Below are positions 16,193 through 35,727 of a stretch of DNA of 39,718 nucleotides, piece after piece. Origin of the DNA: an uncultured archaeon (GTDB lineage Archaea > Thermoplasmatota > Poseidoniia > MGIII > CG-Epi1). The notes beneath the pieces are model-generated. The model saw only the letters and a list, made by a program, of their open reading frames with translations. It made no database searches and was not told where the DNA came from. Numbering within the stretch: the stretch's first letter is position 1; each line of letters starts with the position of its first letter. The stretch lies in the NCBI GenBank assembly GCA_964432625.1, contig CAYSOH010000001.1, forward strand, positions 1-39,718. Reading direction: 5' to 3'. A program made the position numbers and the translations under genes.

Positions 16193-16507
16193 ATGTCCGA
16201 CGACGATGATAACGGCGGAGACTTCCAAGATTTCAAGGGTAGCCCTGACCCTTCCGAAGGAGGAATAACAATGAATGAAATCATTACTTCCCTAGGTGCG
16301 GTAATGATTATTGGAGGATTTGTACTGGGTTTGATACGACTAATGGCTCTTAATGGAGGAGTCAGTGGAAGCGAGAATTACAATAGCGATTTAGAACAAT
16401 TATACTTAAGTTATGTAATAATGTTTATTGGAATGATTATAACTTCGTTCATGGGCTTCGGTGGAATGTTCAAGAGAGCAGTTTCATCTTTCTTCTCAAG
16501 TGAGTAA
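16193..16507 (+). CDS. small membrane protein with acidic N-terminus (hypothetical)
   Basis: MSDDDDNGGDF followed by two hydrophobic helices. No recognisable family. Confidence 0.4.
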   Translation: MSDDDDNGGDFQDFKGSPDPSEGGITMNEIITSLGAVMIIGGFVLGLIRLMALNGGVSGSENYNSDLEQLYLSYVIMFIGMIITSFMGFGGMFKRAVSSFFSSE

Positions 16508-16511
16508 GAAG

Positions 16512-16895
16512 TTAGAAAGATACGGTTTGGTCAAGGCGTACGTTCATAGTTCCATCACTGATTTCAATAGTATAGACGAACGTAGTGGTATCACTCGAAG
16601 CTGAAGTTAAATCAAAATAAAGGGAATAACCTTTTGATGCGAAAAGAGACTCGAATGTCTCAGCTGTGGTATCAAAGGAGGTTTCTAAACTTGTACCTGA
16701 TTCTGCATTATCAACTTCATACTCTAGGGCCAATGGAAAATCATCCACTATAGTGCTCAACAGAGGAGTTAGATCGTGCCTCTCTCCCTGGTGAGTAGAG
16801 ATATTCACTGAATGTGTTATTGTACTACTAACTGCAATTATAGTAATTGTCATCAAAAGACCGGAAATCAACAATAATTGTGCGTTATCTTTCAT
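16512..16895 (-). CDS. pilin-like/minor pilus subunit candidate (N-terminal hydrophobic helix)
   Basis: MKDNAQLLLISGLLMTITIIAVSS followed by a Ser/Thr-rich beta-type domain. The ATG shares one nt with the upstream TGA. Last gene of the pilus locus. Confidence 0.45.
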   Translation of the reverse strand: MKDNAQLLLISGLLMTITIIAVSSTITHSVNISTHQGERHDLTPLLSTIVDDFPLALEYEVDNAESGTSLETSFDTTAETFESLFASKGYSLYFDLTSASSDTTTFVYTIEISDGTMNVRLDQTVSF

Positions 16896-17347
16896 CAATC
16901 CTCTCTATACCCATACCATAATTTCAGATTCAAATCCCAAACTTCATCATCTGCCCAAACTATTCTAAAAGCTTGAACAACTGATCCAGACGGGACTTCA
17001 CGATCAACAATAACTTCTGTTTGACCTCCATGTGTTGCTTCTAATCTGTAAGAAACGGATGGTGGTAAGCCTGCATCCAGATACTGTTTGATAGATGCAT
17101 CATCGCCTGTTGCCAGCCACCAAGCTAGAGTTGAACCATCATGTTCTGCCGCCACAGCAGCGTCCGAAGGTTGCCAAGTATCAAGCATTTCAAGAATCTC
17201 AAGACCTGAAAAATAAAGATCGTTTTCCTCAACGTTATTAGCATCACTCGTTGGCAGAATATTTACCGCTACATTGATAGCTGAGGTGAAAAGGGTTGCA
17301 ACCAACAGGACCTCCAGCACATGCATTTGCCCCTTGGTATCATTCAT
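16895..17347 (-). CDS. pilin-like protein with KGQ-type class-III signal candidate
   Basis: MNDTKGQMHVLEVLLVATLFTSAINV resembles the archaeal KGQ...E prepilin N-terminus, with the Glu one position off the usual +5. Confidence 0.5.
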   Translation of the reverse strand: MNDTKGQMHVLEVLLVATLFTSAINVAVNILPTSDANNVEENDLYFSGLEILEMLDTWQPSDAAVAAEHDGSTLAWWLATGDDASIKQYLDAGLPPSVSYRLEATHGGQTEVIVDREVPSGSVVQAFRIVWADDEVWDLNLKLWYGYRED

Positions 17348-17364
17348 ATTAAATTAAACCTCAA

Positions 17365-18627
17365 CTAAATCTGAGGAGTGACCATAGATGTTCCAATTCC
17401 TACCATTTCAAAGACGAACCAGCCAACTAGAAGTAAAGCTGAAGCACGAATAAATGCTGAATATAATCTACCAGATGCCATGAAACCTGCAGCAAGGCCA
17501 TTACCAATTCCTTGTACTATCAGACTGTAAAGAAAAATCGTAGAAATCCATACTTCATTTATCTCTCTAATTGTTAAATTTCCAATTGACATTGAACCTT
17601 GGCCTCCTGTAGCTGCTGATGAATCGACGATAGCTGGAATAAAAGTCGAAGCTAGAACAAGAATAATACCTAGATAAACAAAGAATGAAGCATAAATGAC
17701 GGTTACATAACTTCCTACTTCCTGCCTTCTCTCAGTCTCCAGAGCTTTGATTTCTCTGGCATCATATGACGCAGCCAAAAGAATATCTGAAATACGGCCT
17801 CCTGCACGATTTGCTTCATCAACCATCCTTACTGCTCTGGTAACAATAGGTGAAGTTACACGTTCAGTAAACATCTCTAGAACTTCGCCAAAGGATACTC
17901 CCCAAGAAATTTGTGAAGCCATTTTGTTAACCTCGTCATTTAGATTACCATACTCACCCTTAGCAAGAGTCTGAATAGCGACCGTCATACTTAGACCTCC
18001 TTTCCAATATTCTGCAAGATCTCTCAAGAAGTCTGGGAATTTGTCCTCTACACGTGCCCTAATCTGGTCTCTCCTCCAACCATAAATTCCATAAGGTAGC
18101 ATCAAACTGACCAAACCAAACACAACGTAATCTATCGCAGATATCTCAGGATAGCTTCTGTACCATGTATTGGCCGACATTTCCATCTCTATACCATCAA
18201 CACCTGGGGCACTATCCTTAGATTCATTTGACAAAAACGGCCAATCTTCTTGCTTATCAACAAGGCCAAGACTAGTTATAGCGTCAATTGCACCATTCCC
18301 CTCACTACCTATAGTTTCATCATAAGTAATTCCAAAAGTAAATGAAAAATCACCATCATTCATATGCCAAGGATTGTCAAACTGTTTGTCATAATCTCCA
18401 TCAATTACGAGTGTAGCCTTATCCGTATTGTAATTTACATTAGCAATAAGAAAGAAGAAAATCGCAAAAATAATGGAAAAGAAAACAACAACAACTGGAC
18501 CCCAATCGAAAGTCTTGTCCCTTACGTTTAGCCAGCGAGATACCTTGCTGTATTCCATCCAGCGTCTGTGAACACCGGTACGCTGATCTTGGTAACTCTT
18601 CTTTTGTAAATTACCTTTGATAGTCAT
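17365..18627 (-). CDS. type II secretion system F-domain platform protein (FlaJ/TadC-like, second half) with extracytoplasmic insert
   Basis: FPDFLRDLAEYWKGGLSMTVAIQTLA...VSFGEVLEMF...RAVRMVDEANRAGGRISDIL followed by three TM helices. An insert of about 90 aa lies between TM1 and TM2. Confidence 0.8.
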   Translation of the reverse strand: MTIKGNLQKKSYQDQRTGVHRRWMEYSKVSRWLNVRDKTFDWGPVVVVFFSIIFAIFFFLIANVNYNTDKATLVIDGDYDKQFDNPWHMNDGDFSFTFGITYDETIGSEGNGAIDAITSLGLVDKQEDWPFLSNESKDSAPGVDGIEMEMSANTWYRSYPEISAIDYVVFGLVSLMLPYGIYGWRRDQIRARVEDKFPDFLRDLAEYWKGGLSMTVAIQTLAKGEYGNLNDEVNKMASQISWGVSFGEVLEMFTERVTSPIVTRAVRMVDEANRAGGRISDILLAASYDAREIKALETERRQEVGSYVTVIYASFFVYLGIILVLASTFIPAIVDSSAATGGQGSMSIGNLTIREINEVWISTIFLYSLIVQGIGNGLAAGFMASGRLYSAFIRASALLLVGWFVFEMVGIGTSMVTPQI

Positions 18628-19574
18628 TAATCAGTTGACACCTCCTGACTCAGAGCATAAAATAAACCAGAAAATACAATCTGAATTATTGGAAAACCGC
18701 CAAAAACTAAGAGATACATGTGTTCCCGCTCAAGCTTCATTCCAGAACCTGAAACCCAGAAAGTAATAACTGCTATAATCATCGCAAAAATCGGCAAAGC
18801 GACCGCAACAACAACATAGGCCTCAGAAAAAAGCGCCATCTGCTGTAATACATCCTTGACATGCACGCGGTTTTGCTGTGCATAATATTCTGACCTATTC
18901 AAGAAATATAATTTGAGATTACCTCCTGATGTAACCGTACCTATGATTCCCTGAAGGAATTCAGCAAATCTCTCAGAAGGAGTTCTATCTACTGCTTCTT
19001 TCAAAGTCGTAACCAAATCACGCCCTATGAATTCCATACTATGATATATCCAAGCTGCATCGTTGGAAATTTCACCGTAAATATCTTTGTTTCTAGCAAG
19101 TGACTTGAAAGTCTGAGATGGAGTTGCATTAGCTGCTGCCATAGCTGATACATAACTTGCAGCGAATGGTAATTGTCTGTCCATATTAGTTGCTCGACTT
19201 CCCTCCATAAATGCTGGAGTAAGCCACTGAACAAGACCAACTAGTATAGGTAGAGCCAAAACCAAGACGGCTCCAACAATTATTTCTACGGTTTGAGAAA
19301 TTTCAAAATTCTCACCTGTGTTTGGGTCTTCCATTCCTCTTAATTCAGGAAAAAGAAATCCCACAAGAAATAGAGTGAAAACCAAACCACCTAGAAATGT
19401 CATTATGACTTGCATGATAGAAGTGGAAACGTAATCCTCTGCAAGAAGGGGGATTCTGGCTTTGACAAGTTGATTTCTAAGTTGTAGAGAATCTTTGGTC
19501 AGCATACGGCCTAACCAACCTAGTAAAACTCTACTAAATGTCTCAAAACCGGTCAGAGCCATTTGTGCCACCAA
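18627..19574 (-). CDS. type II secretion system F-domain platform protein (FlaJ/TadC-like, first half)
   Basis: LPFAASYVSAMAAANATPSQTFKSLA...LKEAVDRTPSERFAEFLQGIIGTVTSGGNLKLYF plus TM helices. Its TAA overlaps the next ATG (TAATG). The start may instead be ATG 19562. Confidence 0.8.
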   Translation of the reverse strand: MVAQMALTGFETFSRVLLGWLGRMLTKDSLQLRNQLVKARIPLLAEDYVSTSIMQVIMTFLGGLVFTLFLVGFLFPELRGMEDPNTGENFEISQTVEIIVGAVLVLALPILVGLVQWLTPAFMEGSRATNMDRQLPFAASYVSAMAAANATPSQTFKSLARNKDIYGEISNDAAWIYHSMEFIGRDLVTTLKEAVDRTPSERFAEFLQGIIGTVTSGGNLKLYFLNRSEYYAQQNRVHVKDVLQQMALFSEAYVVVAVALPIFAMIIAVITFWVSGSGMKLEREHMYLLVFGGFPIIQIVFSGLFYALSQEVSTD

Positions 19575-21808
19575 CGTGGATTAGCGGAACGTTGAACTCT
19601 ATTGGCCAAAGCTGTCTTCAAACTAACAAGTGCTTTAGCTGCACGGCCCTCTTCAGAAGATACTGCTGCTGCTTTCTTATCATCACTTAATTTTGCCATT
19701 CTAGCTTCAGCTTTAGCCCTCTTATTGAGTTCCCCACGAACTGCTTTCAACATGCGACGGCCCTCGACCTCATTAAGTGATGATACATCACCTAAGTCTA
19801 TTTGTTTGGCCAATGGAGTAAGTTGCTTGAGTGGGACGTAGTAAGCTTGATCCTTCAATAAATCTGCTTGAAGTCTAGCTTCTATCTTATCTCTTCGTTT
19901 TTCCTCGTTAGAAATAAGCTTAGATCTCTTGGTTGGATCATCAGTTTGTGATATCTTAGCATCACTCTTTGACCTAGCTGCCTGCTCTTTGGCCTCACGC
20001 TTCTGGTATTTCTGCCTGACCTTTGGTGGGAAATCAGAGACATCGACCTCATCATCTTCAGAACCAGACAAGTCCATATCACGTTCTTCGACTTTCCGGC
20101 GACGTTTCTTACCTCCTACCTGCATATCAGCATAGACTTGGCGCATGACGTCTTCTGGGTGTACATAGTACTCCGCAACGACCCTAGCAAAATCTTTGTA
20201 ATCACGAATTGCTTTCTTCAGACACCATTCAATCACCAGTTGGCGTCTCTTCATCTCATCCATAATCTCGACTCGGTTGAGATTAGCTTTCATCATTATC
20301 TTCTCAAGGATGTATGATTTACCTGTGAAAACATATTCATCAGTCGTATTATCCCATCTGAATGCCTCATTAGTAAGCAGTTCATGGGAATGAGGATCAA
20401 TGCCTATAATCTCAACAATGTTCTTGTTTCTTCGAACACGTTTACCACCAACACGAGTCTGAATTTGGATTGAAATACCGTCCAATGCAGGAATTAAAAC
20501 TCTTGGAATCTCAATTGGTTTGTTTTCTAGACGGTGAACTAAACTCTGAATAGAATCTGCGTGGAAGGTCGAATAAGTTGTGTGTCCCGTAGCCATAGCT
20601 TGGAACAGAACATAAGCTTCAGCACCACGAATTTCTCCCACAATAATGTATTCTGGACGTTCTCTCAAAGCTGCTCGTAGAAGGTCGTACATGTCAACCT
20701 CTCCTGGAGCCTTCTGACCAGTTCCTCCAGCTTCACCTCCAAAACCTTGTCTTGTACAGCCTGGAATCCAGTTAGGATGCGGTAAATTCAACTCTCTTGT
20801 CTCTTCAATACTGACAATCTTATGCTGCCATGGAAGGAAAAGAGAACAAGCATTCAAAGACGTAGTCTTACCTGAAGCCGTTCCACCTACAAACAGCATT
20901 GACATCCCGTATTGCATTGCCATCCAGAAGAAAGCAATCTGCATAGATGAGAAAGTCTTGAATTCCAATAAGTCTACAGGAGTAAAAGGTTCATCCCTGA
21001 AACGCCGTATCGTAAACGTAGAACCCTTAGTCGAAACTTCTCTACCAAGAGTCATAACAATACGGGAACCGTCCATCAGTGTTGCGTCCAATAGTGGTTC
21101 TGCAATCGAAATATGTTTACCACAACGCTGGGCCATACGGATTATGTACTGTTCAAGTTCAAGTTCATCCTCCCACATAACATTGGTTCTCAAAGATTCG
21201 AACCTTCGATGATAAACAAAAACCTCAACATTAGGGCCATCACATGAAACATCCTCAATATTTGGATCACGCATCATAGTATCGACCCGACCATAACCAA
21301 TCATATCTCTCTCAATGAAATAGTGGATTTTTTCTCTGTTGCTTTTTCTAGACTTCAAACGATAACTGTTCAATATATCATCAACAGCCTGTTTCAAGAA
21401 ATCCTCTTGAGACTCATCCATAGTTTCGCGATCAATATTAAGTGCACGCTGAAGAACCTCTTTAATCGTATTAAGATCATCCATTTCCTGTTTACTTGCC
21501 TTCGGTTCCACTACGTAGTAAAACCTTGAATAATCTCTCTTATCGAAAAGAACTCGAACATAGGAAAATGGAGGGCGAACGGGGTAGGTATCAAGTTCTT
21601 CAAAATCTTCTCCAATCTCGATATCATCCATAACGAGATCATGAATAACACCTTCTTTCTCTGCCGCTCGACGCTTACGCTCCAATGCTTTTCGCTGCTT
21701 TTTGAGCTTGCGACGCTCTAACCAGGAAAGTTTTGATTCATCGATGGGTTCTTCCTCTTGTCCAAGCAATCCCGAATCGGCATCTAGTGTCCCTTTCGCT
21801 GCGCTCAT
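19553..21808 (-). CDS. FlaI/ArlI/PilB-family type IV filament assembly ATPase with long charged C-terminal extension
   Basis: YPVRPPFSYVRV..FYYVVEP N-domain, Walker A GGTASGKTT, Walker B/Asp box PEYIIVGEIRGAEA, His box ATGHTTYSTFHA. Residues ~563-751 are a K/R/E-rich tail. Confidence 0.9.
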   Translation of the reverse strand: MSAAKGTLDADSGLLGQEEEPIDESKLSWLERRKLKKQRKALERKRRAAEKEGVIHDLVMDDIEIGEDFEELDTYPVRPPFSYVRVLFDKRDYSRFYYVVEPKASKQEMDDLNTIKEVLQRALNIDRETMDESQEDFLKQAVDDILNSYRLKSRKSNREKIHYFIERDMIGYGRVDTMMRDPNIEDVSCDGPNVEVFVYHRRFESLRTNVMWEDELELEQYIIRMAQRCGKHISIAEPLLDATLMDGSRIVMTLGREVSTKGSTFTIRRFRDEPFTPVDLLEFKTFSSMQIAFFWMAMQYGMSMLFVGGTASGKTTSLNACSLFLPWQHKIVSIEETRELNLPHPNWIPGCTRQGFGGEAGGTGQKAPGEVDMYDLLRAALRERPEYIIVGEIRGAEAYVLFQAMATGHTTYSTFHADSIQSLVHRLENKPIEIPRVLIPALDGISIQIQTRVGGKRVRRNKNIVEIIGIDPHSHELLTNEAFRWDNTTDEYVFTGKSYILEKIMMKANLNRVEIMDEMKRRQLVIEWCLKKAIRDYKDFARVVAEYYVHPEDVMRQVYADMQVGGKKRRRKVEERDMDLSGSEDDEVDVSDFPPKVRQKYQKREAKEQAARSKSDAKISQTDDPTKRSKLISNEEKRRDKIEARLQADLLKDQAYYVPLKQLTPLAKQIDLGDVSSLNEVEGRRMLKAVRGELNKRAKAEARMAKLSDDKKAAAVSSEEGRAAKALVSLKTALANRVQRSANPRWWHKWL

Positions 21809-21809
21809 T

Positions 21810-22322
21810 TTAGTTCCCTGCCGCCAATGTGACGACCTTCAAGTCGACATCATAATATATGACTATATAAGAAGTCGTCGACCTTATAGGAAGACCACTT
21901 TTGGTCACTATTTCTGTCGCTGGATAAAGTGGAAAGTTAACCTCAAATGAACCTCCTCTCGGTTGATAAGTAATAACTTTTAAGCCGTCTTCAGTCCCAT
22001 TAACTTTGTACAATATATCATGATAATTACTAGAATCAGGCCCCCATGCCATAGTAACAACTGGTGAGGCTGTTGGATGTTCACGGATAGTGTTCAGCAG
22101 ATCTTCTATAGCTAACTGAAAATACAATGCTACTTGCTCGGCTTCTTCCTGTACCGTGTTCGATACATTTCCACTTATCATAGTGCTAGATGTAAGCATC
22201 ATTGATGAAAGCACTAAAACTGAAATTAATGCTGTATAAACATAGCCAATTAGCTGCGAAGCAGCAGAATCATCGTAGGCCAAATTCAACATTGATTGTC
22301 CTCTCGAGTACTCTGAAATCAA
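21810..22322 (-). CDS. pilin-like accessory protein (N-terminal hydrophobic helix)
   Basis: AASQLIGYVYTALISVLVLSSMML helix followed by a globular domain. It ends 1 nt before the ATPase ATG. The start is uncertain: 22322 or ATG 22292. Confidence 0.45.
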   Translation of the reverse strand: MISEYSRGQSMLNLAYDDSAASQLIGYVYTALISVLVLSSMMLTSSTMISGNVSNTVQEEAEQVALYFQLAIEDLLNTIREHPTASPVVTMAWGPDSSNYHDILYKVNGTEDGLKVITYQPRGGSFEVNFPLYPATEIVTKSGLPIRSTTSYIVIYYDVDLKVVTLAAGN

Positions 22323-23346
22323 AGGCTGTATCCTGAGAATAGATTATGTCTTCCTCAAAACCCATGTTCGCTGCAGTGGTTGAATCATTTTGATTGAAAT
22401 CAAATTGTCTTGCGCTGAAGTCCCAATAATTCAAATAATAAACTCTTAGAGCTGAGACTCCATCACCTGCAAAAGCCATTCTAAGTGAATAAACGCTAAA
22501 TGAATTATCTGTTCCACCCTGATTTCGGGCCTGGAAATTGTAATTTCCAGCTTGTACTGCTTTTGAGCCTGAGGGTGCGGTATAATTTGTTTGATAAACT
22601 GTTAAGGAGCCATAAGACGAGGAACTGCCTGTATGTCTTATCAAAGGATTAGAAGTTGTAAAGAACTCTTTCGAACCAGGTTCCTTAGAGACCATTGCTC
22701 CATTGAACATTCTCATCTTATATACTCCCGAAACTGAAGAATAACTATATGATAGAGAATCTACGCCATAAATTAGGAAACCACCAATCACTGTTGAATT
22801 TTCAGTACTGGTGAATGTTGCTTTAGTTCCATGAACCAGAGGTGGAAAACCAGAAACCAATAAGTCAGAAGTGCCTGTCCAACTTGGTTCATCTGGAACT
22901 CCGTCTCCGTCATTATCTGGATAGGTGAGTGTAACTCTATACTCACTTACAACTTCATTATTGTCTTTCATAGCAAAGGATTCAGAGCCTGTTTTAACAC
23001 CCACAATCTCTGGATCAAACCATGACACAGTAGTATAGTAATATCTTATTTCATCAAGTTTGGTCCAATCTTCTCTAAGAGCAAGTGTGCCTGCGCTCAA
23101 AGAAACCGTTGATGTGCGAGAAGAACCTTCTCCTTGAAGCAGGACATGATCAAGATCTGCATCGAAATTTAGAAGATTATTTTGTGAGGATGTATATATT
23201 GCATAGGCTTCGCTTTCCTGTATCTGTGGTATTCCCCATGCTAACATAGTACCTGTGATTGTAACCATTATACCTAGAATGAGAACAGTACCTATGATGG
23301 GACTTACACCCTCTTCTGATTCACGGAAAGAAAGCTGACGCTGCAC
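22270..23346 (-). CDS. archaeal type IV pilin-family protein (large, Ser/Thr-rich)
   Basis: GTG start. MQRQLSFRESEEGVSPIIGTVLILGIMVTITGTMLAWG is the archaeal Pilin_N (DUF1628-type) class-III signal plus hydrophobic helix. Contains several N-x-S/T sequons. Confidence 0.7.
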   Translation of the reverse strand: MQRQLSFRESEEGVSPIIGTVLILGIMVTITGTMLAWGIPQIQESEAYAIYTSSQNNLLNFDADLDHVLLQGEGSSRTSTVSLSAGTLALREDWTKLDEIRYYYTTVSWFDPEIVGVKTGSESFAMKDNNEVVSEYRVTLTYPDNDGDGVPDEPSWTGTSDLLVSGFPPLVHGTKATFTSTENSTVIGGFLIYGVDSLSYSYSSVSGVYKMRMFNGAMVSKEPGSKEFFTTSNPLIRHTGSSSSYGSLTVYQTNYTAPSGSKAVQAGNYNFQARNQGGTDNSFSVYSLRMAFAGDGVSALRVYYLNYWDFSARQFDFNQNDSTTAANMGFEEDIIYSQDTAFDFRVLERTINVEFGLR

Positions 23347-23384
23347 ACTGGGGCACCAATAGGGGCTCTAAAAAGTGTTAGGTT

Positions 23385-34606: not shown

Positions 34607-35110
34607 CTACGATTGTAGTGCTATATCGTAACCGATTACGTCACCGGTTGGCTCGAACTTCATACGGAACGAGTAGTCAGATACATCTGAGACACTCTCT
34701 AAATCCGAGTCAGCTTCACCTGGGTGAACTTCAAACTTGTCACCTGGGCTCAACTTACCATTGAAGTCGTTGTCAATGAAGACTACAGCTTTACCCTGGC
34801 CAGAGTAATAACCGTATACATCAGAGACTAAGCCATCAGTCTTAGTGTTTCCCTGTACATCCAGTAGATACCAGTGTACCGAGTTTACGGAAACTTGTGG
34901 GTTAATTTTGACGATCTGAACCGTCCATACACCACTTCCGTCTTCGCTTGCTATCATACTGCCAGTTGGTGCATTCTTGGTTGTACCACCAAGGAAACTG
35001 CTAGCCCAAACATACAGTACTGCAGCCAGAACAACCGTAATTGCAACCATCAAAATGACAGCAATTACAGGCGAAACTGCCTGCTCATCGTTTACTATTC
35101 TGCGCTTCAT
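34607..35110 (-). CDS. archaeal type IV pilin (Pilin_N/DUF1628-type)
   Basis: MKRRIVNDEQAVSPVIAVILMVAITVVLAAVLYVWASSF is a canonical class-III signal plus helix. The globular domain carries the GKLSPGDKFEV motif typical of this family. Confidence 0.7.
   Translation of the reverse strand: MKRRIVNDEQAVSPVIAVILMVAITVVLAAVLYVWASSFLGGTTKNAPTGSMIASEDGSGVWTVQIVKINPQVSVNSVHWYLLDVQGNTKTDGLVSDVYGYYSGQGKAVVFIDNDFNGKLSPGDKFEVHPGEADSDLESVSDVSDYSFRMKFEPTGDVIGYDIALQS
34623..34664. repeat. 42-nt perfect repeat, copy A (3' end of pilin gene)
   Basis: atatcgtaaccgattacgtcaccggttggctcgaacttcata is identical to 35198..35239, at the same 575-nt offset as the larger block. Confidence 0.9.
34827..34987. repeat. 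161-nt near-perfect repeat, copy A (147 nt perfect, 1 mismatch at 34974)
   Basis: Compared base by base with 35402..35562. Bases 34827-34973 are identical, 34974 differs (t vs c), and 13 further bases are identical. Confidence 0.9.
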
Positions 35111-35120
35111 AGTTGTGTCC

Positions 35121-35136
35121 TCTGACCGAAGTCAGA
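35121..35136 (-). other. short hairpin with UUCG tetraloop in the pilin 5' region
   Basis: The minus strand reads TCTGAC-TTCG-GTCAGA and ends 11 nt upstream of ATG 35110. It abuts GAGGA, a Shine-Dalgarno-like sequence. Confidence 0.35.
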
Positions 35137-35184
35137 ATTTGGCTACAACTATCTGAGCATATATACCTTACGTTAAAACAATCT

Positions 35185-35727
35185 TCATTCAAATACAATA
35201 TCGTAACCGATTACGTCACCGGTTGGCTCGAACTTCATAAGGAATGAAAAACCAGACAAATCATCAATATCTTCTAAATCTGAATTAGCCTCAGACGGAA
35301 GGAATTCAAATTTGTCACCGGGGCTCAATTTACCATTGAAATCTACATCAGTAAATATTACTCCATGGCCATGACCTTGTTTAGTACCATAGATATCGGA
35401 AACTAAGCCATCAGTCTTAGTGTTTCCCTGTACATCCAGTAGATACCAGTGTACCGAGTTTACGGAAACTTGTGGGTTAATTTTGACGATCTGAACCGTC
35501 CATACACCACTTCCGTCTTCGCTTGCTATCATACTGCCAGTTGGTGCACTCTTGGTTGTACCCTGAGGGTACCATCCATACGTTATGGAATAATAAAATA
35601 CTAATAGAATTATGAGGATAGCCAGAAGGCCTACTGCAATTCCTGTAACTTTTAAAATTTCTGTAATCTTGGAAAGCCCGACAACACTCTTAACTGAATC
35701 TAAGTCTTTCTCATCACTATCAGTCAT
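35185..35727 (-). CDS. membrane-anchored paralogue of the 34607..35110 pilin head domain (no class-III signal)
   Basis: The N-terminus MTDSDEKDLDS...GIAVGLLAILIILLVFYY lacks the VSPVIG motif. Its head domain shares a 51-aa block (APTGSMIASEDGSG...TDGLVSD) that is 100 percent identical to the pilin. ATGA overlap with the upstream gene. Confidence 0.65.
   Translation of the reverse strand: MTDSDEKDLDSVKSVVGLSKITEILKVTGIAVGLLAILIILLVFYYSITYGWYPQGTTKSAPTGSMIASEDGSGVWTVQIVKINPQVSVNSVHWYLLDVQGNTKTDGLVSDIYGTKQGHGHGVIFTDVDFNGKLSPGDKFEFLPSEANSDLEDIDDLSGFSFLMKFEPTGDVIGYDIVFE
35198..35239. repeat. 42-nt perfect repeat, copy B
   Basis: Identical to 34623..34664. Confidence 0.9.
35402..35562. repeat. 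161-nt near-perfect repeat, copy B
   Basis: Identical to 34827..34987 except for 35549. Confidence 0.9.

What the first reader, a model, noticed from the sequence alone, without database searches (positions are those of the whole stretch)
16512..23346. Seven-gene type IV filament locus that is not a canonical archaellum
The order on the minus strand is:
- a large Pilin_N-type pilin (EGVSPIIG signal)
- a pilin-like protein
- a FlaI/PilB-family ATPase
- two separate T2SS-F-domain platform proteins
- two more proteins with pilin-like N-terminal helices.
The genes are packed with spacers of -22 to +17 nt. There is no KaiC-like FlaH/ArlH, no recognisable FlaF/FlaG/FlaCDE, and no prepilin peptidase in the window. 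The content therefore points to an adhesion or Tad-like pilus rather than a motility archaellum. Two further genes sharing a pilin-type head domain, one with a class-III pilin signal, lie 11 kb away (34607-35727) with their own regulator.
Basis: partly seen in the sequence, partly recalled or inferred. Interest (0 to 1): 0.6.

Follow-up and report, generated by a model that had tools for sequence, protein, structure and literature searches.

The report
Marine Group III type IV pilus operon
This is a real seven-gene operon, found in every Marine Group III archaeon searched, that builds a type IV pilus (probably for sticking to particles or cells) and not a swimming archaellum; it is an ordinary member of a pilus class already catalogued in Euryarchaeota.

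Summary
Seven tightly packed minus-strand genes (16512-23346) encode a 358-aa pilin, a pilin-like protein, a 751-aa secretion ATPase, two single-domain platform proteins and two more pilin-like proteins.

The window comes from an epipelagic Marine Group III (MGIII, Poseidoniia) genome bin.

The locus is not an archaellum:
- The ATPase scores 415 bits on NCBIfam's FlaI model (cut-off 550). It lies outside a 100/100-supported clade of ATPases that sit next to FlaH.
- Marine Group IIa (MGIIa) genomes carry an ortholog of it (56-58% identity) alongside a separate canonical arlB-F-G-H-I-J locus.
- No archaellin, FlaF/G or FlaH was found in this genome. None of 42 same-family genomes holds an archaellin-family match that reaches Pfam's cut-off.

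It belongs to the euryarchaeal "clade 2 / system 2" pili (Haloferax PilB3-C3 type, Archaeoglobus GspE-like). In that group, split platform genes and extended ATPases are already described.

A class III signal peptidase is encoded elsewhere in the genome, on contig C92. A canonical PilA-type pilin 11 kb away is the likelier main filament subunit, so the four pilins in the operon are probably minor or tip subunits.

"Tad-like" fits a second, separate locus (contig C35) better than this one.

This scan already reported the same operon in other MGIII genomes (e1-1409248, e1-926432), with the same conclusion. Novelty is low.

The parts
22270..23346 (-). p1: 358-aa class III signal-peptide pilin (EEG|VSPIIG) of the DUF7289 family. 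Long N-terminal helix plus an all-beta head. Probably a minor or tip pilin.
   Evidence: DUF7289 reaches 27.6-37.6 bits (cut-off 27) and in orthologs; PF23960 is also precomputed for many orthologs. AlphaFold2 model: pLDDT 78, helix 14-71, then beta strands. Present in 45 of 45 MGIII genomes.
21810..22292 (-). p2: pilin-like protein of about 160 aa. N-terminus DDSA|ASQLIGYVYT..., with a non-canonical -2 residue. Weakly DUF7266-like.
   Evidence: ATG 22292 with a GAGAGGA site upstream. Orthologs start at this Met. DUF7266 scores 15.9 and 21.7 bits in two orthologs, below threshold.
19553..21808 (-). Assembly ATPase, 751 aa, VirB11/FlaI superfamily, euryarchaeal clade 2 (PilB3/AfGspE-like). Carries MGIII-specific charged extensions: about 67 aa at the N-terminus and about 190 aa at the C-terminus, the latter ending in NPRWWHKWL.
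18627..19574 (-). Platform protein, N-terminal half (315 aa, one T2SSF domain). Its start overlaps the end of the ATPase gene by 22 nt.
   Evidence: matches positions 46-221 of the ArlJ model. The split form is conserved in MGIII, MGII, methanogens and Theionarchaea.
17365..18627 (-). Platform protein, C-terminal half (420 aa, one T2SSF domain at residues 200-325, preceded by a region of about 165 aa).
   Evidence: (matches positions 216-459 of the ArlJ model).
16895..17347 (-). p6: 150-aa pilin-like protein with an invariant KG|QMHVLEV class III-type N-terminus. DUF7288-like.
16512..16898 (-). p7: 128-aa pilin-like protein (NA|QLLLISGLL here; K/R-G/A|Q in most orthologs). A family confined to this lineage.
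   Evidence: Only 17 clusters among 1.84 billion representative proteins. Present in 42 of 45 MGIII genomes.
23364..23375 (-). TATA-like element (CTTTTTAG) centred about 25 nt upstream of the p1 GTG start, in the 38-nt spacer after trxB. Inferred own promoter giving a leaderless transcript.
   Evidence: This is read from the sequence only; there is no transcript evidence.
34607..35110 (-). PilA-type pilin, 167 aa (QA|VSPVIAVILMVAITV), encoded in trans. The only pilin gene in this genome that passes the Pilin_N cut-off, and the probable major filament subunit.
   Evidence: 41.1 bits; 40.2 bits. Its assignment to this machinery is an inference.

Best explanation
The locus is the assembly operon of a non-motility archaeal type IV pilus of the euryarchaeal clade 2 / system 2 kind (Haloferax PilB3-C3, Halobacterium pil-1, A. 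fulgidus GspE). It is vertically inherited and is found in all or nearly all 45 Marine Group III genomes searched.

Inferred mechanism:
1. A class III signal peptidase encoded elsewhere (contig C92) removes the short leaders of the pilins.
2. The hexameric ATPase docks on a membrane platform made of two separately encoded half-proteins.
3. Using ATP, it extracts processed pilins from the membrane and stacks them into a filament through their conserved N-terminal helices.
4. The four pilin-like proteins in the operon (p1, p2, p6, p7) most likely form the priming, tip or minor-pilin set. The large beta-rich p1 would be the exposed, fast-evolving adhesive part.
5. The small PilA-type pilin 11 kb away supplies the bulk of the filament.
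6. The likely role is attachment to particles or other cells.

Shown here: gene content, family membership, exclusion from the archaellum, conservation, and the presence of the peptidase and the PilA pilin.

Inferred only: which pilin is the major one, co-transcription, that a filament is made, and adhesion as its function.
For: Against an archaellum ATPase:
- The NCBIfam FlaI model gives 415.6 bits against a cut-off of 550.
- Across 121 Thermoplasmatota genomes the scores are bimodal: true ArlI at 595-793 bits, everything else at 455 bits or less.
- All seven sampled ATPases over the cut-off have FlaH next to them; the others do not.
- In the tree these seven form a 100/100 clade on a branch of length 2.0. 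The window's ATPase groups 100/99 with MGIII and MGII orthologs, inside the non-ArlI group that also holds a two-ATPase locus resembling the Aciduliprofundum locus that Makarova assigns to clade 2.

Placement in clade 2:
- The closest solved structure is A. fulgidus GspE, 2OAP, at 429 bits. S. acidocaldarius FlaI scores 282 and CpaF 133.
- The Pfam PilB3_C domain scores 42 bits against a cut-off of 27.
- The nearest named relatives (44-53% identity) are Methanoregula, Methanolobus, Methanomassiliicoccaceae, Theionarchaea and DHVE2. The five whose neighbourhoods were inspected all have two split platform genes beside the ATPase.

Coexistence with a real archaellum: MGIIa genomes hold this ATPase's ortholog (56-58% identity) as well as a canonical arlB-F-G-H-I-J locus.

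Absence of archaellum parts: 1 of 45 MGIII genomes (none of the 9 that are at least 90% complete) has an Arch_flagellin match over the cut-off. The same model does detect MGIIa archaellin and FlaG.

Pilin evidence.

Peptidase: Peptidase_A24 35 bits plus Arc_PepC_II 41.7 bits on contig C92.

Literature: Makarova et al. 2016 (PMC4858521) describe clade 2 with two tadC genes, pilins encoded in trans, and a large beta-rich minor pilin. Losensky et al. 2015 (PMC4292770) show an adhesion role for the Halobacterium pil-1 locus.
Against: - There is no transcript, protein or imaging evidence.
- Clade 2 membership rests on nearest neighbours and a tree limited to Thermoplasmatota plus two haloarchaeal plasmid sequences. 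No clade 4 (TACK) or named Haloferax PilB1-5 references were included.
- Three of the four pilin-family assignments are below threshold or absent: p2 and p6 are weak and p7 has none.
- The p2 leader lacks the usual charged -2 residue.
- Two assembly systems exist in the genome, so the PilA pilin could belong to the C35 machinery instead.
- An adhesive function is only an analogy with haloarchaea.
Confidence: 0.8

Rival explanations
1. The machinery is as described, but p1 (358 aa) is itself the major filament subunit. The system would then be independent of PilA, like the Haloferax PilB4-type or Halobacterium pil-2-type loci that carry their own pilin set.
For: p1 is the first gene of the operon, with a TATA-like box just upstream. 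It has the best class III signal and a nearly invariant N-terminal helix. It is present in 45 of 45 genomes. The in-operon set matches the haloarchaeal families DUF7289, DUF7266 and DUF7288, which in a Halobaculum plasmid locus lie directly downstream of the ATPase and platform genes.
Against: Major archaeal pilins are usually about 130-170 aa. Makarova et al. describe the 250-550-aa beta-rich pilin of clade 2 loci as a minor pilin. A canonical 167-aa PilA-type pilin lies in the same window. The orthologous MGII modules lack p1 and p2 next to them.
Confidence: 0.2
2. The system does not make an adhesive pilus. It makes a short pseudopilus or bindosome-like surface assembly, or a structure for DNA or cell-cell exchange, that displays or positions other proteins carrying class III signals.
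For: Sivabalasarma and Albers 2026 (PMC13705601) propose that many archaeal type IV machineries are adapted for substrate scavenging. MGIII are planktonic heterotrophs. Four different pilin-like proteins with no obvious adhesin domain sit in the operon, and p1's head has no solved structural match.
Against: A rough motif scan found no substrate-binding proteins with class III signals in this genome (the scan was noisy). No ABC transporter lies next to the operon. The characterised relatives of this clade make adhesion pili.
Confidence: 0.12
3. It is a degenerate or divergent archaellum used for swimming, as "flagella" annotations of MGII/MGIII bins imply.
For: JGI names close homologs "flagellar protein FlaI". 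The best NCBIfam hits for the ATPase and the platform genes are the FlaI and ArlJ models. Li et al. 2015 (PMC4660358) call deep-sea MGII and MGIII motile.
Against: All of those scores lie far below the curated cut-offs. The ATPase lies outside the ArlI clade. FlaH, FlaF/G and archaellins are absent. Orthologs coexist with real archaellum loci in MGIIa.
Confidence: 0.02
4. It is a Tad/Epd-type (system 1) pilus.
For: Two platform genes, as in TadB/TadC and EpdJ/K.
Against: The ATPase has the full FlaI-type N-terminal domain. It scores 144 bits against a cut-off of 373 on the TadA model and 133 bits on CpaF against 429 on AfGspE. There are no Flp-like short pilins and no peptidase in the locus. 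The genome's short TadA-like ATPase (208 bits on that model) lies on contig C35. Split platforms are normal in clade 2.
Confidence: 0.03

Closest known systems
Euryarchaeal clade 2 / system 2 type IV pili: Haloferax volcanii PilB3-PilC3 with PilA1-6, Halobacterium salinarum pil-1, A. fulgidus GspE (PDB 2OAP). Sources: Makarova et al. 2016; Sivabalasarma and Albers 2026.
   Same: A FlaI-sized ATPase with a PilB3_C domain. A TadC-type platform, often encoded as two genes. A large beta-rich minor pilin with a class III signal. PilA-type pilins encoded in trans. No FlaH, FlaF/G or archaellins. Coexistence with a separate archaellum where one is present.
   Different: Four pilin-like genes flank the core in MGIII, whereas the Haloferax PilB3 and Halobacterium pil-1 loci have none. 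The ATPase carries an MGIII-specific charged C-terminal tail of about 190 aa with a conserved Trp-rich end. The 2026 classification describes system 2 as having a single platform gene.
Haloarchaeal seven-gene loci with their own pilin set (Halobacterium pil-2, and Haloferax PilB4-type or subclade 4C). Example here: the Halobaculum halophilum plasmid locus L032.
   Same: Seven genes in about 6.8 kb. Pilin-like families DUF7289, DUF7288 and DUF7266. An ATPase with N- and C-terminal extensions.
   Different: The haloarchaeal version has one fused 679-aa platform gene and five pilin-like genes, all downstream (DUF7287, DUF7288, a DUF7261-like protein, DUF7266, DUF7289). MGIII has a split platform, pilin-like genes on both sides, no DUF7287 or DUF7261 match, and only weak scores for two of the families.
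Archaellum (ArlB, ArlF, ArlG, ArlH, ArlI, ArlJ)
   Same: The same superfamily of ATPase, platform and class III-signal subunits.
   Different: A different ATPase clade, a split platform, and no ArlH, ArlF/G or archaellins. See the membership test.
Epd/Tad pili (system 1)
   Same: Two platform genes.
   Different: A long rather than short ATPase, globular pilins rather than Flp-like ones, and no dedicated peptidase in the locus.

Membership tests
Archaellum | ATPase belongs to the ArlI/FlaI clade | tested here: not met
   NF058587 gives 415.6 bits against a cut-off of 550. Scores across the phylum are bimodal, with a gap from 455 to 595 bits. The ATPase lies outside the 100/100 ArlI clade.
Archaellum | KaiC-like ArlH/FlaH encoded next to the ATPase | tested here: not met
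   No PF06745 hit in the window. The only KaiC-like genes (contig C38) score 39-62 bits on the ArlH model (cut-off 215) and 159 bits on KaiC. MGIIa FlaH, used as a control, scores 176 bits.
Archaellum | Archaellin and ArlF/ArlG (Arch_flagellin family) | tested here: not met
   Best own-genome hit for PF01917 is 13.4 bits, in an unrelated 719-aa frame. No match over the cut-off in the 42 same-family genomes. hhalign probability against FlaB/F/G is 18.5% at most. The model does detect MGIIa archaellin and FlaG.
Archaellum | Single two-domain ArlJ platform | tested here: not met
   Two genes, each with one T2SSF domain, matching the N- and C-terminal halves of the ArlJ models far below their cut-offs.
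Archaellum | ArlCDE or ArlX, and chemotaxis coupling | not tested
   No dedicated model search was run. None of the seven proteins hits such a family.
Euryarchaeal clade 2 / system 2 type IV pilus | Clade 2 secretion ATPase (PilB3/AfGspE-like) | tested here: met
   2OAP at 429 bits is the top solved match. PilB3_C scores 42 bits against a cut-off of 27. The ATPase groups with the two-ATPase locus that resembles the Aciduliprofundum clade 2 locus, and with methanogen and Thermoplasmata homologs. Caveat: no clade 4 references were in the tree.
Euryarchaeal clade 2 / system 2 type IV pilus | TadC-type platform next to the ATPase | tested here: met
   Two T2SSF genes overlapping the ATPase gene or each other. 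The same split is seen in Methanoregulaceae, Methanolobus, Theionarchaea, DHVE2 and Methanomassiliicoccaceae loci.
Euryarchaeal clade 2 / system 2 type IV pilus | Pilins with class III signal peptides | tested here: met
   p1 [DE][GA]|VSP(I/V)IG; p6 [KR][GA]|QMHVLE; p7 [KR..][GA]|QLLL in most orthologs. p2 is non-canonical. These were read by motif; FlaFind itself was not run.
Euryarchaeal clade 2 / system 2 type IV pilus | Class III signal peptidase in the genome | tested here: met
   Contig C92, 305-aa ORF: Peptidase_A24 35 bits plus Arc_PepC_II 41.7 bits, both over their cut-offs, with a GGADVK motif.
Euryarchaeal clade 2 / system 2 type IV pilus | PilA-family major pilin | tested here: met
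   Window 34607-35110, Pilin_N 40-41 bits. Its link to this machinery is an inference.
Euryarchaeal clade 2 / system 2 type IV pilus | Makes a non-rotating adhesive filament | not testable with these tools
   This needs imaging or genetics.
Tad/Epd (system 1) pilus | Short TadA/CpaF/EpdL-type ATPase | tested here: not met
   TIGR03819 gives 144 bits against a cut-off of 373. CpaF scores 133 bits against 429 for AfGspE. The protein is 751 aa and has the FlaI-type N-terminal domain.
Tad/Epd (system 1) pilus | Flp-like short pilins without a globular head, and a dedicated peptidase in the locus | tested here: not met
   The pilin-like proteins are 128-358 aa and have globular parts. There is no peptidase in the window.
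Haloarchaeal pilin set (DUF7287, DUF7288, DUF7261, DUF7266, DUF7289) | Members of these five families next to the ATPase and platform genes | tested here: inconclusive
   DUF7289 is met: 27.6-37.6 bits. DUF7288 scores 15.9-24.5 bits in 4 of 7 p6-type proteins tested (cut-off 27). DUF7266 scores 15.9-21.7 bits in 2 of 4 p2-type proteins tested (cut-off 27.6). DUF7287 and DUF7261 were not found.

The most novel reading that the evidence does not exclude
The MGIII version could be a mechanistically distinct sub-variant. The ATPase has a conserved charged tail of about 190 aa, ending in an invariant NPRWWH(K/R/S)W(L/F). This tail, together with the lineage-restricted p7 and the split platform, might replace the MinD-, ArlH- or scaffold-type accessory proteins of other archaeal filaments. 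It might also give the only filament-assembly systems found in these minimal planktonic cells a new activity, such as retraction, twitching or regulated display.
Probability: 0.1. Interest if true: 0.5.

Novelty: new member of a known kind. Interest (0 to 1): 0.25.

Why it matters
It corrects an annotation habit. Homologs of this ATPase are labelled "flagellar protein FlaI" in JGI records. Marine Group II and III bins have been described as flagellated or motile on the strength of such genes. Within the limits of genome-bin completeness, none of the 42 epipelagic MGIII-family genomes searched holds an archaellin-family match that reaches Pfam's cut-off, and all 9 of the near-complete ones keep this pilus operon. 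This points to attachment rather than swimming as their way of reaching particles. Beyond that, the locus adds one well-conserved and abundant marine example to the euryarchaeal clade 2 pili.

Tried and rejected
- Profile comparison (hhalign) of the MGIII p1, p2, p6 and p7 alignments against three single haloarchaeal proteins (a Pilin_N pilin, a DUF7261-like protein and DUF7289) and against FlaB/F/G. All probabilities were low (73% at most, and that only over the leader helix), so it was uninformative for family placement. It does show no FlaF/G signal.
- Foldseek of the p1 model against the PDB. No match at E below 1e-3, only FN3-like fragments.
- AlphaFold2 of p6. The model was poor (pLDDT 53) and was not searched further.
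- phmmer of p7 against 1.84 billion representative proteins. It found only 17 lineage-restricted clusters and no link to a named family.
- My own FlaFind-like regular expression over the genome. It was noisy and even missed the PilA pilin, so I used it only as a weak negative for binding proteins.
- The sigma-70 promoter and terminator scan. Counts were at chance level and the scan is not relevant to archaea.
- Haro-Moreno et al. 2017, the paper describing the MGIII genome bins, is not held in the library.
- The contig C38 KaiC-like genes were considered as a hidden FlaH and rejected.

Full report
**Observation.**
The seven minus-strand ORFs are present exactly as described.
- p1: 22270-23346, 358 aa.
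- p2: 21810-22322. Its probable real start is ATG 22292, behind a GAGAGGA site, and the orthologs begin at this methionine.
- ATPase: 19553-21808, 751 aa.
- Two platform genes: 18627-19574 and 17365-18627.
- p6: 16895-17347.
- p7: 16512-16898.

Junctions are -23, +1, -22, -1, +17 and -4 nt.

Pfam and NCBIfam give:
- T2SSE plus PilB3_C for the ATPase.
- One T2SSF domain in each platform gene. The two genes match the N- and C-terminal halves of the ArlJ/UpsF models.
- DUF7289 and Pilin_N for p1, and weak DUF7288 for p6.

A TATA-like CTTTTTAG sits about 25 nt before the p1 start codon, in the 38-nt spacer after trxB. This suggests the operon has its own promoter and a leaderless message. That is an inference from sequence only.

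**Organism and conservation.**
Close homologs are labelled Marine Group III euryarchaeote (CG-Epi3, CG-Epi5) or Poseidoniia. The source genome is a 1.2-Mb bin, 74% complete.
- Across 45 genomes of the order, the ATPase is found in 43, p1 in 45 and p7 in 42. In nearly all cases all three lie on the same contig, about 6.5 kb apart.
- Gene order is the same in all 17 loci I extracted. In epipelagic genera the operon is flanked by trxB and pyrG.
- Median identity to the window is 86% for the ATPase and about 75% for the platform genes. It is only 58-59% for p1 and p7. Faster change of that kind is expected for surface-exposed proteins.

**Not an archaellum.**
Four independent lines agree.

1. Curated model. 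The NCBIfam FlaI model scores the ATPase at 415.6 bits against a cut-off of 550. Over 121 Thermoplasmatota genomes the scores are bimodal: 595-793 bits, or 455 bits and below.
2. Context and tree. Each of the seven high-scoring ATPases I fetched has a FlaH gene beside it; none of the low-scoring ones does. In a maximum-likelihood tree these seven form a 100/100 clade on a branch of length 2.0. The window's ATPase groups 100/99 with MGIII and MGII orthologs, within the other group. That group also holds a two-ATPase locus from a complete 1.5-Mb genome, which resembles the Aciduliprofundum boonei locus that Makarova et al. assign to clade 2.
3. Coexistence. MGIIa genomes hold three ATPases. One is an ortholog of this one, at 56-58% identity and about 510 aa. 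One is a genuine ArlI (678 bits) in a canonical archaellin-FlaF-FlaG-FlaH-FlaI-FlaJ locus. The third is a short 413-aa enzyme.
4. Missing parts. Arch_flagellin finds nothing meaningful in this genome. Only one of the 45 MGIII genomes has a match over the cut-off, and it belongs to the deep-water family. None of the 9 genomes that are at least 90% complete has a match. The same model does detect the MGIIa archaellin and FlaG, so divergence does not explain the absence. The only KaiC-like genes, on contig C38, look like KaiC (159 bits) and not ArlH (39-62 bits against a cut-off of 215). They lie among transporter genes.

**What it is.**
- The closest solved structure is the Archaeoglobus fulgidus GspE ATPase (2OAP, 429 bits). 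Sulfolobus FlaI scores 282 and CpaF 133.
- The nearest named relatives, at 44-53% identity, are Methanoregula, Methanolobus, Methanomassiliicoccaceae, other Thermoplasmata, Theionarchaea and DHVE2. In the five loci I inspected, two platform half-genes lie beside the ATPase.
- This is the distribution and architecture of the euryarchaeal clade 2 of Makarova et al. 2016 (PMC4858521). That paper notes that many clade 2 loci have two tadC genes. It also notes that ATPase/TadC modules often use pilins encoded elsewhere, and that a 250-550-aa all-beta pilin is the signature minor pilin.
- Sivabalasarma and Albers 2026 (PMC13705601) call this group system 2 and note extended ATPase termini. They describe a single platform gene, however.
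- The split platform and the long ATPase are therefore already known features of this class.

**The pilin-like proteins.**
- p1 has a canonical class III leader, [DE][GA]|VSP(I/V)IG. Its first 70 residues are nearly invariant. It passes the DUF7289 cut-off and in two orthologs. A model at pLDDT 78 shows a 58-residue N-terminal helix followed by an all-beta head. The head has no solved structural match beyond FN3-like pieces.
- p6 carries an invariant [KR][GA]|QMHVLE leader and repeatedly hits DUF7288 below threshold.
- p2 weakly hits DUF7266, and its -2 position is not charged.
- p7 has a [KR][GA]|Q(L/M)L(L/M) leader in most orthologs. Its family has only 17 clusters among 1.84 billion representative proteins.
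- The same DUF families (DUF7287, DUF7288, a DUF7261-like protein, DUF7266, DUF7289) follow the ATPase and a fused platform gene on a Halobaculum plasmid. That arrangement recalls the seven-gene Halobacterium pil-2 locus. The MGIII pilin set is thus a rearranged, partial relative of a known haloarchaeal set.
- The only pilin gene in this genome that passes the Pilin_N cut-off is the 167-aa PilA-type gene at 34607-35110. By size and by analogy with Haloferax, it is the likelier bulk subunit.
- A class III signal peptidase (Peptidase_A24 plus Arc_PepC_II) is on contig C92.

**The "Tad-like" label.**
The genome has a second system on contig C35: two small platform genes and a 435-aa ATPase. That ATPase scores 208 bits on the TadA model, against 144 bits for the window's enzyme. 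In relatives this second locus lies 18-23 kb from the operon, on the same contig. It is the better candidate for an Epd/Tad-like system. The window's operon is not one.

**Lineage-specific feature.**
MGII orthologs align only to residues 68-558 of the window's ATPase. The N-terminal 67 aa and the K/R/E-rich C-terminal tail of about 190 aa are specific to MGIII. The tail ends in NPRWWH(K/R/S)W(L/F) in all three epipelagic genera, but not in the deep-water family. Its role is unknown. This is the only part of the locus with some novelty, and it is the subject of separate notes in this scan.

**Limits.**
- There is no expression or imaging evidence.
- The tree lacks TACK-type clade 4 sequences and named Haloferax paralogs.
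- Three pilin-family assignments are weak or absent.
- The link between PilA and this machinery, and adhesion as the function, are inferences by analogy.

**Earlier work in this scan.**
The same operon was already examined in other MGIII genomes (e1-1409248, e1-926432). The conclusion was the same, and my tests reach it independently.

**Verdict.**
The locus is an ordinary, order-wide type IV pilus operon of a catalogued class, with a modest lineage-specific twist.

Noticed in passing
Genome contig C35:5106-7689 (loci L001, L015, L018): A second type IV filament core: two small T2SSF genes (195 and 254 aa) plus a short 435-aa TadA-like ATPase, next to a PPDK-like gene. It is conserved in MGIII and MGII and lies 18-23 kb from the seven-gene operon in relatives, so it sits just beyond the left end of this window. 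No pilin is seen beside it here. In MGIIa a 165-aa PilA-type pilin lies 6 kb downstream of it.
   Followed up: partly
Genome contig C163:3-2158 (L002): A 2.2-kb contig carries a second copy of the ATPase 3' part and the start of platform 1, 90% identical to the window's copy. It is most likely a co-binned strain variant and not a paralog.
   Followed up: partly
window 19556-20122 and 21608-21808: The ATPase tail of about 190 aa ends in NPRWWH(K/R/S)W(L/F) in all epipelagic MGIII genera. It is absent from MGII orthologs and different in deep MGIII. The last codons overlap the platform gene start by 22 nt.
   Followed up: partly
L024 (G001:C12) and L025 (G002:C12), deep-water MGIII family: A third filament locus seen only in the larger deep-water genomes. 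It has a 554-562-aa ATPase, a fused 621-aa platform, a 598-624-aa Pilin_N/FG-GAP pilin, a 659-679-aa protein with Big_1 and CARDB domains, a DUF7714 protein, and a double-domain KaiC encoded divergently. One of these genomes (G002) also has archaellin-family genes on small contigs.
   Followed up: partly
L026:14027-15484 and L027:2893-4329; L026:61-7369: In deep MGIII the p7 position holds a 478-485-aa protein with the same pilin-like N-terminus. The operon there is preceded by a 1626-aa protein and a 784-aa beta-helix/PKD protein, which may be adhesins.
   Followed up: no
window 16193-16507 (+): A 104-aa protein with a very acidic head and two hydrophobic segments converges on the operon end, 4 nt away. 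The same gene sits there in another genome of the same genus (G013, L030:13916-14230). It has no family match.
   Followed up: no
L034, L039, L040 (MGII orthologous loci): In MGII the orthologous ATPase and split platform stand without p1 or p2, next to an ABC transporter and an adenylate-kinase-like gene. One locus has a p6-like gene with the AQVHILE motif. The pilin complement around this core therefore differs between MGII and MGIII.
   Followed up: partly
L096:6620-7477 (Methanolobus); L136:11202-11870 (Theionarchaea): A MinD-like ATPase precedes the homologous ATPase in Methanolobus, and a prepilin-peptidase-like gene follows the platform genes in Theionarchaea. Neither accessory gene is present in the MGIII operon.
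   Followed up: no
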